This document shows positions 55,401 to 57,748 of a DNA stretch of 64,000 nucleotides, one piece after another. The first letter of the stretch is position 1; each line of letters opens with the position of its first letter. The stretch is from Okamejei kenojei (taxonomy: Eukaryota). Where the stretch lies: the NCBI GenBank assembly GCA_035221665.1, contig CM069151.1:14384001-14448000 (forward strand), given 5' to 3'. The position numbers were made by a program, and so were the translations under genes. The notes under the pieces were generated by a model that did no database searches, had not been told where the DNA came from, and saw only the letters and a list, made by a program, of their open reading frames with translations.

Positions 55401-57748
55401 ACAATTATTGGAAGATGACCATTAATTTTTTTCTGAGAACCCAGCAACAAATATCACTGCAGCTGTTTGGGAGTGATGCTTATCGGTCATATTGATAACC
55501 GGTCCTGAAAGGTGCAAATAGCAGTCGGTGATTTGTGACTGAAACAACTGTAGCCTTGTAAAACTCACTGTCACCACCTTCTCTGGAATGTTAATGCTGT
55601 ATTTGTGTTTGCAGCAAATGTATCCTGTTGATCCATGAATATAATAGCTGAAGGCCATGTCCCCTAACCAGTATTGGTGCAAGCACAGATTGTGTGGTTC
55701 AATGTGAGGATAGGTGATGGGAGGGAGGCTAGCAACCCGGGCTGTCGTTTACTGTACTGGTTCAAAGGTAGAGGGATAATAGTCAGAGGGTGGTGAATCT
55801 GCCACAGAAGGCTGCAGAGGCCAAGCTAGTAGATATTTTTAAGGCAGAGATCGACAGATTTGTGATTACTACAGGTATCAGAGGTTATGAGGAGAATGGA
55901 GTTAGGAGGGAGAGATAGATCAGCCATGATTGAATGGTGGAGTAGACTTGATGAGCCAAATGGCCTAATTCTACTCCCATTCCTTATGACTGCAACACTT
56001 TTTTGTTAATTTGTTTATAAAAACATTATTAATCATAACCAATGAAATGTCTTTGTACTAGAATCTATAAGTGAACATGCCCTTGTTCAGTTTAGTAGTG
56101 ATTATGAAATGCCTGCAATTCCCATTGATATAATTTCCTGTCGTTCTGGTTATTGACGGCAGCCTTGGAGACGATGATACATGGGGTTATTTACTGCCGT
56201 GGATTGGCTTCAATGGCTGTTACAGCCATCAATCTGGAATAGTTGACGATAGGCTTTCGTGATGAAAGGTTTGATTTGCCATTTATCAGATTGCCACTTT
56301 CTTTGTCTGAAGTAGTTGTTTGGGCCTTTAAATCTAGACTATAATGCTAAAAATAATTGGGAAACTATTACTCTGCGGTATTGTAAGCACATTGATTTTT
56401 GTTTTATAGATAATTCAACCTGGATCGGCATATTTCTATGTGGAGCTGGACAATGAAGAGAAGTTATTCCACAGGATAAAGAAACAATTTCCTTTGCAGT
56501 TTGGAAGGTACAAAGAGTAGGCAGGCAGTTTCAAGTATCTACTGTCTTGGTGAGCCTGTATTGCTTAACGCCCATCAGCTGAATGTAGGCACCTCTCATT
56601 GTGAATCCTACAAGAGTGCATTTAGGCCCAAAATTGTAATGTATGATATTTATTTTTGAAAATGACTACTTCTAGTTGAATATGACCCAAACTAATCTGG
56701 ACCGTGAGTGCCAGACACTCGCGGCATACAGTGGCACAGTGGTAGAGACCTGGGTTTGATGCGTCTACGGGTGCTCTGTACGAGGTTCGTACATTCTCCC
56801 TGTGACCAAATGGGTTTTCTCCGGGTGCTCTGGTTTCCTCCACACTATATATGCAAATTTGTAGGTTAACTCAGCGGCACAGGCACCTTCCCTGGAGAGA
56901 ACGAATGGTTGACCTTGCAATTATTATTAAAGTCTTAATAATATTTGCAAGAAGGATATTAAATGCATATAAACTGAGTTGCTTGCGATTAGAGTTTAAA
57001 AGGGCCTCAATAAAGAACATAATTATTTTATTTTACCCCATTGCTGTAGAATGCCTATTGGAGGCAAGGTGCTCATCCACTTTTGTTTTGAATTTTGGCC
57101 TATTTATTGTGAATAATATGTTTGTCTGCTGTAGAGCAATCTTTTCAAGAGAAACCTACTGCATGCAGCATCAAAATACATTATTGGACTGAATGAAAAC
57201 TAAAGCAGATTGCACGAGAGAGCAGATGATAAAGTTGATCTATTTACGTATCCAATTTCAGGACCCATGCACTAGTTTCTTGTACGAAACAGTTCCATAT
57301 TTAATATGCAGTTAAAATAAATGTGCCCATTTTCGATAAGGGATCATGGCACTGGGTCTGGAGAGGGCATAATTAAAAAAACAAATGTTTGATTGCAGCA
57401 AAGCAGTGCTATTGTCTGGTGTAGATTTGTAAATATTAATTGTGTTTTTACTGAGACTTGAACCTTACAGATATCCGTGAGAGTGAATAATTGCATATTA
57501 TGTTGTGCGCTCCTTTGCGAGACAGTATTGAATAATGCGTCATCTTTTAGCGTTGCTGATTCAACTTCATTCATATATTTAATGTTTTCTGAATTTCCCA
57601 CAGGGAGGTGTTGGCGAGTGAAGCTGTCCTGAACATCCCTGACAAAGCAAATTGGAGGGAATGTAAATATAGCCGAGAAGATGAAATAGAATTTGCCAAG
57701 TCCTTCAGAGAGGGGTTTCAACCATATGATTTTTCCTTGCTTGATTAA
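34443..57748 (+). CDS. CWF19L1: CWF19-like protein 1 (534 aa, 14 coding exons; metallophosphoesterase-like N-terminus plus CwfJ C-terminal domains)
   Basis: Exons 34443-34465, 37174-37258, 38158-38242, 39826-39927, 40340-40554, 42276-42394, 44119-44203, 46912-47052, 49299-49395, 51455-51534, 52372-52581, 53127-53246, 56410-56507, 57604-57748 sum to 1605 nt in frame. Motifs: [74 protein letters not shown]. Confidence 0.96.
34558..34725. repeat. GC-rich ~45-56-bp tandem repeat (4 copies of GGCCCGGGGTACAGGCC...) in CWF19L1 intron 1
   Basis: Core recurs near 34558, 34608, 34664 and 34708. Confidence 0.85.
35590..36467 (+). mobile_element. Decayed Tx1/L1-like LINE 3' fragment
   Basis: Reads [17 protein letters not shown] near 36047-36100 (K..LW..RN..VF motif); ends AATAAA plus A-run. 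Confidence 0.55.
36699..36980 (+). mobile_element. HE1/V-SINE-type SINE
   Basis: A/B-box-like head ggcacagtggtagag...ggttcaatcc and CTAAACTAAACTAAA tail. Confidence 0.85.
37174..37258 (+). CDS. CWF19L1: CWF19L1 exon 2
   Basis: ttttcag|[28 protein letters not shown]|gtgagg. Confidence 0.93.
38158..38242 (+). CDS. CWF19L1: CWF19L1 exon 3
   Basis: ttgtag|[28 protein letters not shown]|gtaaat. Confidence 0.93.
38271..38679 (-). mobile_element. Young CR1 3' fragment, same subfamily as the 28.0-kb copy
   Basis: Near-identical to 28040-28448; TACATTTT target-site duplication at 38263-38270 and 38680-38687. Confidence 0.9.
39826..39927 (+). CDS. CWF19L1: CWF19L1 exon 4
   Basis: cccag|[33 protein letters not shown]|gtatgt. 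Confidence 0.93.
40340..40554 (+). CDS. CWF19L1: CWF19L1 exon 5
   Basis: ctgtag|[18 protein letters not shown]...[21 protein letters not shown]|gtcagt. Confidence 0.94.
40746..41723. mobile_element. Non-autonomous hAT (Charlie-type) element
   Basis: TIRs CAGTGCGTCGTAAACT / AGTTTAAGAAGCACTG; 8-bp TSD ATCTAGAG / GTCTAGAG (NTCTAGAN target); subterminal GGTGAATG repeats. Confidence 0.88.
42276..42394 (+). CDS. CWF19L1: CWF19L1 exon 6
   Basis: ccgcag|[39 protein letters not shown]|gtattg. Confidence 0.94.
42415..42880 (+). mobile_element. CR1 3' fragment just downstream of CWF19L1 exon 6
   Basis: [12 protein letters not shown]...LGLFSL..RKLRG in ORF 42352..42573. Confidence 0.8.
44119..44203 (+). 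CDS. CWF19L1: CWF19L1 exon 7 (GC donor)
   Basis: atttag|[28 protein letters not shown]|gcaagt. Confidence 0.9.
44325..44690 (+). mobile_element. Rex1-type LINE 3' end
   Basis: Translates to ...[25 protein letters not shown]; ends in (ATTGA)n tail. Confidence 0.8.
44691..45187. mobile_element. Palindromic non-autonomous DNA element (Crypton-like, tentative)
   Basis: ~155-bp imperfect palindrome 44691-44846 centred on GCCCGAGTCGAAGACGAGGGC, plus a second inverted repeat 44840-44868/45158-45187. Confidence 0.55.
45646..46666. mobile_element. PIF/Harbinger-type MITE with long TIRs
   Basis: TIR AAGCCCTGTCCCACTGTGCGAGTTCACCCAAGAGCTCTCC and its complement; TAA duplication at 45643-45645 and 46667-46669. 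Confidence 0.85.
46912..47052 (+). CDS. CWF19L1: CWF19L1 exon 8
   Basis: acacag|[30 protein letters not shown]...GESAS|gtaagt. Confidence 0.92.
47961..48055. repeat. Low-complexity G-rich tract
   Basis: Many runs of 5 or more G separated by T/GT spacers. Confidence 0.85.
48290..48590 (+). mobile_element. HE1/V-SINE-type SINE
   Basis: tRNA-like head tggctcagctggtagagc...ggttcaatcc, core and 3' end. Confidence 0.85.
48687..49024. mobile_element. Shorter member of the same Harbinger-type MITE family
   Basis: Same TIR (AAGCCCTGTCCCACTGTACGAGTTCA...TGAACTCGCATCATGGGACAG) after TAA. Confidence 0.8.
49299..49395 (+). CDS. CWF19L1: CWF19L1 exon 9
   Basis: tatgag|[32 protein letters not shown]|gtaagt; 5' boundary relies on a GAG acceptor. 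Confidence 0.8.
49813..50045. mobile_element. Penelope-like non-autonomous element, head-to-head inverted arms with hammerhead motifs
   Basis: ~95-bp inverted arms; TTGCTTACTAAATT duplicated at 49799-49812 and 50046-50059; CTGAAGA-stem-GAAACGTC on both strands. Confidence 0.75.
51455..51534 (+). CDS. CWF19L1: CWF19L1 exon 10
   Basis: ctttag|[26 protein letters not shown]|gtaagt. Confidence 0.94.
52372..52581 (+). CDS. CWF19L1: CWF19L1 exon 11
   Basis: ttatag|[25 protein letters not shown]...[13 protein letters not shown]|gtactt. Confidence 0.95.
52766..52907 (+). ncRNA. SNORA12: Box H/ACA snoRNA, SNORA12 (U108)-like, in CWF19L1 intron 11
   Basis: Hairpin 1: TGTGGT/ACCACA with upper stem 52784-52794/52802-52811. 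H box ACATAA 52825-52830. Hairpin 2: 52837-52846/52891-52900 with upper stem 52858-52866/52874-52884. ACA at 52902-52904. Human SNORA12 is hosted by CWF19L1. Confidence 0.8.
53127..53246 (+). CDS. CWF19L1: CWF19L1 exon 12
   Basis: atccag|[40 protein letters not shown]|gtgagt. Confidence 0.94.
56095..56313 (+). ncRNA. Candidate long box C/D sno/scaRNA in CWF19L1 intron 12
   Basis: GTGATTA 56098-56104, TTGA 56125-56128, multi-stem insert 56137-56253, GTGATGA 56259-56265, CTGA 56307-56310; ends ~100 nt before the acceptor. Confidence 0.45.
56410..56507 (+). CDS. CWF19L1: CWF19L1 exon 13
   Basis: ttatag|[32 protein letters not shown]|gtacaa. Confidence 0.94.
57604..57748 (+). CDS. CWF19L1: CWF19L1 exon 14 with TAA
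   Basis: ccacag|[22 protein letters not shown]...[10 protein letters not shown]. Confidence 0.94.

What the first reader, a model, noticed from the sequence alone, without database searches (positions are those of the whole stretch)
56095..56313. Unnamed ~215-nt structured C/D-box RNA candidate in CWF19L1 intron 12
Seen in sequence: a non-repetitive stretch with box order C-like GTGATTA (56098), D'-like TTGA (56125), a folded insert, perfect GTGATGA (56259) and CTGA (56307), ending ~100 nt before the 3' splice site. The insert forms a three-way junction: a 9-bp closing stem 56137-56145/56245-56253, a hairpin with ACGGCAG/CTGCCGT (56156-56162/56194-56200, extendable), and a hairpin ATGGCTG-tta-CAGCCAT (56213-56229). 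Established: intronic C/D RNAs tend to sit near the acceptor, and C/D scaRNAs carry a long structured insert between D' and C'. Inference: a second guide RNA in a host known to me only for SNORA12. I could not match the putative guides (AATGCCTGCAATTCCCA; GATTGCCACTTTCTTTGT) to rRNA or snRNA from memory, so it may be an orphan. The terminal stem is weak.
Basis: partly seen in the sequence, partly recalled or inferred. Interest (0 to 1): 0.72.

Follow-up and report, generated by a model that had tools for sequence, protein, structure and literature searches.

The report
Long intronic C/D guide RNA candidate
An intron of the CWF19L1 gene in this vertebrate holds a single-copy, 215-base stretch with all four signature boxes of a methylation guide RNA, and it likely encodes a new small nucleolar RNA predicted to mark one position of the organism's own 18S ribosomal RNA, though no separate RNA has been seen yet.

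Summary
The boxes and stems are at the stated places in CWF19L1 intron 12, 99 nt before the acceptor. The stretch is single-copy and has no Rfam match. Four boxes plus a D'/C'-bridging stem near an acceptor arose in 4 of 300 shuffled gene sets. Among related species, 0 of 18 listed variable sites fall in the 83 box and guide positions (P 0.013; lists partly cut). Against: box C has a G-to-U change, the terminal stem is weak, there is no compensatory change, one allele hits both guide and closing stem, and RNA contigs show only pre-mRNA. The three-way junction holds about 25% of the fold ensemble; no scaRNA signal was found. SNORA12 lies in intron 11. Verdict: probably (about 0.6) a real, undescribed box C/D snoRNA; the 18S target about 0.4. 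The scan's index showed nothing similar elsewhere.

The parts
56095..56313 (+). Candidate box C/D RNA, about 215 nt; ends inferred from the boxes
   Evidence: the 3' invariant run among relatives ends at 56313
56098..56104 (+). Box C, one mismatch (U for G at position 6)
56105..56124 (+). D' guide: 56114-56123 pairs perfectly with own 18S 1568-1577 (+2 to +11; +5 = A1571); 56106-56111 pairs with 18S 1580-1585
56125..56128 (+). Box D', one mismatch
56129..56258 (+). 130-nt folded insert between D' and C'; holds 10 of the 18 listed interspecies differences
56137..56145 (+). 5' arm of the closing stem that brings D' and C' together
   Evidence: pair probability 0.85-1.0 for 8 of 9 pairs
56245..56253 (+). 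3' arm of the closing stem
56259..56265 (+). Box C', perfect consensus
56266..56306 (+). C'-D spacer and D guide (41 nt); no target found; no listed change in relatives
56307..56310 (+). Box D, perfect consensus, 99 nt before the acceptor
53247..56409 (+). Host intron 12 of CWF19L1
52763..52907 (+). SNORA12 (U108) homolog, H/ACA, in intron 11; below the Rfam cut-off (35 of 45 bits) but the best match in the genome
34443..57748 (+).

Best explanation
[quoted passage not shown] Shown: four boxes in order, a stem that joins D' to C' across a 130-nt insert, position 99 nt before the acceptor, a snoRNA host gene, single copy, and a 10-bp perfect plus 6-bp complement to a hairpin of this genome's 18S. 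Inferred from established C/D biology: release by splicing and trimming, binding of 15.5K, NOP56, NOP58 and fibrillarin, and the +5 rule. The perfect C' and the closing stem would make the internal C'/D' site the working one; the 6-bp extension would help open the target hairpin (helix 42 by recalled numbering). The D guide is without a target. Odds: real C/D RNA about 0.6; real and with this target about 0.4.
For: Architecture with bridging stem near an acceptor in 4 of 300 shuffled sets. Host carries a SNORA12 homolog in intron 11. 0 of 18 listed variable sites in 56016-56409 lie in the 83 box and guide positions, P 0.013; organism E alone 0 of 83 against 31 of 648 in flanks, P 0.017; invariant runs 56046-56168 and 56240-56313. 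D' guide: 10 Watson-Crick pairs from +2, reached by 30 of 5000 shuffles and 131 of 21178 intronic 20-mers against 7086 nt of the organism's rRNA and snRNA; duplex -21.1 kcal/mol, reached by 5 of 400 shuffles and 6 of 146 box-flanking controls. It meets the rule reported for zebrafish guides (nine or more pairs at +2 to +10; D' guides used in two-thirds of cases; PMC7668251 passages). The matched hairpin stem is variable in the Rfam consensus and the guide fits this organism's version.
Against: Box C departs from consensus, which almost all zebrafish SNORDs keep (PMC7668251), and a perfect C' is itself unusual there. Terminal stem weak. Two RNA runs labelled as the best DNA holders' organism (X6, X15; contig depth 4-5) carry two changes, one in the guide at +10 (leaving 8 pairs) and one breaking a G-C pair of the closing stem; with them P rises to 0.052. 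No compensatory change in any stem; listed changes break the rod in most cases, the end pair of hairpin 1 in all five relatives and one pair of hairpin 2 in two. The whole 219 nt is not more conserved than flanks (7 of 219 versus 4.8%, P 0.17). Relatives are only about 4% apart and the difference lists are cut (shown: 22 of 28 for E, 9 of 15 for C, 8 of 24 for D, 8 of 25 for F, 5 of 7 for G). The 5' invariant run starts 50 nt before box C. Two guides were tested, so the target P is about 0.012-0.03 before allowing for the many windows scanned. I found no report of methylation at the equivalent site in zebrafish or Xenopus passages.
Confidence: 0.4

Rival explanations
1. Ordinary intron sequence: the boxes are chance, and the two invariant runs reflect chance or another constraint (splicing or enhancer element near the acceptor).
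For: The pattern arises in about 1% of shuffled genes and the first stage reads very many genes; whole-region fold z -0.19; overall conservation equal to flanks; alleles in guide and stem; the 5' invariant run extends beyond the predicted end; RNA contigs over the stretch run on into exon 13.
Against: Architecture, end-specific invariance and the rule-conforming 18S complement are three largely independent signals (P about 0.013, 0.013-0.05 and 0.012-0.03); the 3' invariant run ends three bases after box D, while the 96 nt nearer the acceptor hold 6 variable sites; no joint using the stretch as an exon was among those listed (18 joints not shown).
Confidence: 0.3
2. A real box C/D RNA, but with another or no methylation target: an orphan, or one whose conserved C'-D segment pairs with an RNA not tested here.
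For: The 74-nt 3' block including the D guide is as invariant as the 5' block although it has no target; the allele in the D' guide is tolerated; length and long insert recall SCARNA97 (216 nt, PMC6601510). Weak alternatives exist: 5.8S 69-78 (10 perfect pairs but a mismatch at +3) and tRNA-Sec (7-bp and 8-bp matches side by side).
Against: No snRNA target among U1, U2, U4, U5, U6, U11, U12, U4atac, U6atac; no GU repeat, pyrimidine fraction 0.52, no H/ACA hinge; tRNA-Sec joint match reached by 20 of 120 shuffled pairs and breaks the +5 rule. Only 8 tRNA types were on hand.
Confidence: 0.2
3. A decaying or weakly expressed copy of a once-functional C/D RNA (for example a far-diverged SNORD96 relative, whose guide region resembles the 5.8S match).
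For: Imperfect box C, weak terminal stem, disruptive alleles; the D' guide holds a 10-nt complement to 5.8S 69-78, the region that SNORD96 targets (recalled).
Against: No similarity to any Rfam snoRNA at E<=10; the genome's best SNORD96 match lies on another contig (35 bits) and does not align to the candidate; the ends show no interspecies change.
Confidence: 0.1

Closest known systems
Vertebrate intronic box C/D methylation guides using the D' element, including lineage-restricted ones (zebrafish SNORD200-204, PMC7668251; Xenopus-specific guides, PMC6984369)
   Same: Intronic, sense strand, near the acceptor, C-D'-C'-D order, 10-bp complement from +2, no Rfam family
   Different: About 215 nt with a 130-nt folded insert, perfect C' but imperfect C; target site not among the sites I could see for zebrafish, Xenopus or (recalled) human; no sequence similarity shown
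SCARNA97/SNORD133 and SNORD97 (PMC6601510, parts 1-2 of 4 read)
   Same: 216-nt box C/D RNA with a long internal segment
   Different: There the insert is a 93-nt pyrimidine tract and the D guide targets tRNA-Met C34; here the insert is a folded 52% pyrimidine segment and no rule-conforming tRNA target was found
Box C/D scaRNAs with G.U/U.G wobble stems (SCARNA2, 7, 9, 17) and composite C/D-H/ACA scaRNAs (SCARNA5, 6, 10); features partly recalled, the wobble-stem signal as stated in PMC6601510
   Same: Long structured insert between D' and C'
   Different: No GU repeat, no H box between the hairpins, no snRNA complement, no Rfam match
SNORD96 (RF00055), guide for 5.8S Gm75 (target recalled)
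   Same: A 10-nt complement to the same 5.8S stretch
   Different: Here it lies four bases further from the box, with a mismatch at +3; no family match; length 215 versus about 85
SNORA12/U108 (RF00586)
   Same: Same host gene
   Different: H/ACA class, intron 11; a separate element 3.2 kb upstream

Membership tests
Box C/D snoRNA | Terminal box C (RUGAUGA) and box D (CUGA) | tested here: inconclusive
   D perfect; C has one mismatch at position 6
Box C/D snoRNA | Internal D' and C' boxes brought together | tested here: met
   D' one mismatch, C' perfect, bridging stem p 0.85-1.0
Box C/D snoRNA | Terminal stem closing the C/D kink-turn | tested here: inconclusive
   Only an interrupted flank duplex of -10.3 kcal/mol
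Box C/D snoRNA | Intronic, sense strand, near the acceptor of a host gene | tested here: met
   Intron 12, 99 nt before the acceptor; host carries SNORA12
Box C/D snoRNA | Nine or more pairs with a target at +2 to +10 | tested here: met
   D' guide: 10 pairs with 18S 1568-1577; D guide: 6 only
Box C/D snoRNA | Conservation of boxes and guide above intron background | tested here: inconclusive
   P 0.013, or 0.052 with the two alleles; shallow relatives, cut lists
Box C/D snoRNA | Discrete stable RNA bound by fibrillarin, NOP56, NOP58, 15.5K | not testable with these tools
   Only contigs of long-RNA libraries were served; they do not cover SNORA12 either
Box C/D scaRNA | G.U/U.G wobble stem or pyrimidine-rich Cajal-body signal in the insert | tested here: not met
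   Longest GU repeat 2 nt; pyrimidines 52%
Box C/D scaRNA | Guide complementary to a spliceosomal snRNA | tested here: not met
   One copy each of nine snRNAs from this genome; best is a 9-pair, two-wobble U6 match reached by 285 of 400 shuffles
Composite C/D-H/ACA scaRNA | Hairpin-H box-hairpin-ACA domain inside the insert | tested here: not met
   The only ANANNA (56169) lies inside hairpin 1; no ACA after hairpin 2
SNORD96 (RF00055) | Family model match and +5 on 5.8S G75 | tested here: not met
   No match; +5 falls on A70 of this genome's 5.8S with a mismatch at +3
Any Rfam 15 family | Score at gathering threshold | tested here: not met
   0 matches in the window at gathering; none over the stretch at E<=10

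The most novel reading that the evidence does not exclude
A long box C/D RNA family absent from Rfam and from the bony-vertebrate catalogues searched, born in or kept by cartilaginous fishes, whose D' guide fits this lineage's own version of a variable 18S hairpin and installs a methylation not described in other vertebrates, while its equally conserved 3' half and folded insert serve a second, unknown partner.
Probability: 0.3. Interest if true: 0.6.

Novelty: new member of a known kind. Interest (0 to 1): 0.45.

Why it matters
If real, it adds a second guide RNA to a host so far listed only for SNORA12 and predicts a specific, easily tested rRNA methylation (18S A1571) in a vertebrate lineage whose rRNA modifications I found no map of. 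It would be a case of a guide matched to a lineage-specific rRNA sequence, and of a long-insert C/D RNA without known Cajal-body signals. The mechanism itself is the standard one, so the gain is for snoRNA evolution and annotation, not a new kind of system.

Tried and rejected
Rfam at gathering (whole window) and at E<=10 (55500-57000, 53100-56100): nothing over the stretch. Dispersed repeat: one genomic match; the repeat next to it ends near 55990. Paralogs through 15-nt guide patterns: 11 and 9 exact hits including itself; the ten examined for the D' guide show no box context or tRNA; the 8 other D-guide hits were not examined. Deeper homologs in metagenome contigs: 96 pattern hits, 80 fetched, none similar beyond the pattern. 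Expression: no holder on record as RNA; five runs laid behave as RNA because they hold spliced exon joints or an exon-bounded contig, but their contigs over the stretch (depth 3-5 against 72-249 for mRNA) start upstream or run into exon 13, other intron pieces are covered alike, and SNORA12 is not covered, so they say nothing on a discrete RNA. Targets rejected: U12 3' end (lead from memory, not present in this genome's U12), U6 A45, U4, 28S sites with wobbles and mismatches (11 of 150 shuffles), ITS1, ITS2 and part of the 5' ETS (no perfect run of 10), tRNA-Sec (20 of 120). Not tested: 5S, U3, U8, 7SK, 7SL, RNase P/MRP, most tRNAs, mRNAs. Chicken GGoACA8, listed in 'CWF19L1 intron 12' (PMC2653536), resembles the SNORA12 consensus by eye and is not this RNA. 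Zebrafish entry 2215 (chr4:17650839-17651076, 238 nt, in cwf19l1; PMC11880993 supplement rows) has both H/ACA and weak C/D calls and shares its 5' end with a 140-nt H/ACA RNA; no sequence was given, so it stays open. The scan's own index returned nothing that bears on this.
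Full report
Observation. Fourteen exons at 34443-57748 give an open 535-aa frame, and RNA contigs splice 53246 to 56410, so the stretch lies in intron 12 with box D ending 99 nt before the acceptor. The stretch matches only itself in the genome and no Rfam family. 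A SNORA12 homolog lies at 52763-52907 in intron 11: 35 bits against a cut-off of 45, full model length, the only match in the genome search. So the host is a snoRNA host, and the candidate is a separate element.

Chance level of the boxes. A four-box pattern of this strictness appeared in 11% of 100 shuffles of the whole gene, and once more in the real window at 3496-3592. Near an acceptor it appeared in 10 of 300 shuffled sets of the 13 intron ends, and with a bridging stem of 8 or more pairs in 4 of 300. This is uncommon for one gene but would be met often in a scan of many genes.

Fold. The whole region is no more stable than shuffles. The 130-nt insert is (z -2.2), though 8 of 57 intronic windows of this gene do as well. 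The closing stem is firm (8 pairs at p 0.85-1.0). By hand, from the partners and the letters, five of six substitutions at rod-paired positions break the pair and two deletions fall in rod stems; in the junction, hairpin 1 loses its end pair in all five relatives and hairpin 2 loses one pair in two. No listed interspecies change touches the closing stem. No compensatory pair was seen. The junction fits the variation better than the rod, but neither is shown.

Conservation. The relatives differ by about 4%. Listed differences were 22 of 28 for E, 9 of 15 for C, 8 of 24 for D, 8 of 25 for F and 5 of 7 for G; for C and E the unlisted ones most likely lie in the adjoining repeat or at contig ends, which is my inference. 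In 56016-56409 there are 18 variable sites: 10 in the insert, 6 in the 96 nt before the acceptor, 2 upstream, and none in the 83 box and guide positions (P 0.013; for E alone P 0.017). The two invariant runs, 56046-56168 and 56240-56313, are long (0.0006 by simulation, a statistic chosen after seeing the data), and the second ends three bases after box D. Against this, the 219 nt as a whole are not more conserved than the flanks (P 0.17), the first run starts 50 nt before box C, and two runs of organism A carry a change at +10 of the D' guide and one that breaks a G-C pair of the closing stem, which raises P to 0.052.

Target. I took 18S, 28S, 5.8S and one copy each of nine snRNAs from this genome (7086 nt). 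The D' guide forms 10 Watson-Crick pairs from +2 to +11 with 18S 1568-1577, then after a 2x2 loop 6 more pairs with 1580-1585; +5 is A1571. Ten pairs from +2 were reached by 30 of 5000 shuffles and 131 of 21178 intronic 20-mers; the energy by 5 of 400 shuffles and 6 of 146 controls. Two guides were tried, so these figures should be doubled. The site is a hairpin whose stem is variable in the Rfam consensus, and the guide fits this organism's letters; helix 42 and a human equivalent near 1613 are recalled, not computed. Zebrafish guides need nine or more pairs at +2 to +10 and use D' in two-thirds of cases, while almost all keep a consensus box C and have a degenerate C' (PMC7668251, passages): the guide fits, the boxes are atypical. 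The same guide pairs with 5.8S 69-78, but with a mismatch at +3. The D guide reaches only 6 pairs. A two-part match to tRNA-Sec was reached by 20 of 120 shuffled pairs and breaks the +5 rule; only 8 tRNA types were available.

Expression. No small-RNA data were served. Contigs over the stretch have depth 3-5, begin upstream of box C or run into exon 13, and other intron pieces are covered alike; SNORA12 is not covered. This is pre-mRNA and is neutral.

Literature. Searches: CWF19L1 + snoRNA (14 of 16 listed), SNORA12/U108/CWF19L1/intron 12, Xenopus and zebrafish catalogues, snoRNA + cartilaginous + methylation, SNORD97, snoRNA + selenocysteine tRNA + Um34 (none). Seen: passages of PMC1636440 and PMC4696412 (SNORA12 as the RNA hosted by CWF19L1); passages and supplement hits of PMC2653536 (chicken GGoACA8, SNORA12-like by eye); passages and supplement search of PMC6984369 (no cwf19l1 row); part 1 of 7 and supplement rows of PMC11880993 (a 238-nt zebrafish cwf19l1 entry with mixed H/ACA and C/D calls, no sequence); passages and 12 of 17 supplements of PMC7668251; passages of PMC8797249; parts 1-2 of 4 of PMC6601510. 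None describes a C/D RNA in CWF19L1 with these guides; the zebrafish entry is unresolved.

Verdict. Three partly independent signals (architecture in a snoRNA host, invariant ends, a rule-conforming 18S complement) favour a real intronic box C/D RNA, about 0.6, and a guide for 18S A1571, about 0.4. Each signal is modest, the box C mismatch and the allele count against, and no discrete RNA or deep homolog could be tested. It works like a D'-guide snoRNA; it fails the tests for scaRNA, composite scaRNA and SNORD96 membership. New member of a known kind; interest 0.45.

Noticed in passing
window 52763-52907 (+): SNORA12 homolog below the Rfam cut-off in CWF19L1 intron 11; likely unannotated
   Followed up: yes
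window about 7100-12400 (-): Exon-like frames resembling troponin I (name from memory), one with a Glu/Pro-rich stretch, upstream of and opposite to CWF19L1
   Followed up: no
window about 32880-34420: GC-rich tandem repeat of about 40-nt units, about 1.5 kb, running up to the CWF19L1 start codon
   Followed up: no
window 44204: Intron 7 of CWF19L1 starts with GC, a GC-AG intron
   Followed up: partly
window 3496-3592 (+): A second four-box C/D pattern, not in a known sense-strand intron; taken as a sign of the chance level
   Followed up: partly
window 28100-30930 (-): Broken LINE-like endonuclease and reverse-transcriptase frames (family from memory)
   Followed up: no
window 56111-56117 and 56267-56274: Perfect 7- and 8-base complements to adjoining parts of this genome's tRNA-Sec anticodon arm; not beyond chance in a joint test
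   Followed up: yes
L007 3590-7896: Truncated or rearranged rDNA unit (partial 28S and 18S pieces between two 5.8S copies 7 kb apart)
   Followed up: no
window 53387-53470 and 55156-55304: Strongly folding inverted-repeat elements in intron 12 that give spurious microRNA-family hits and are high-copy repeats
   Followed up: partly
L126 (G000:C12:24295727-24295813): Best SNORD96 match in the genome, 35 bits, below cut-off; looks diverged
   Followed up: partly
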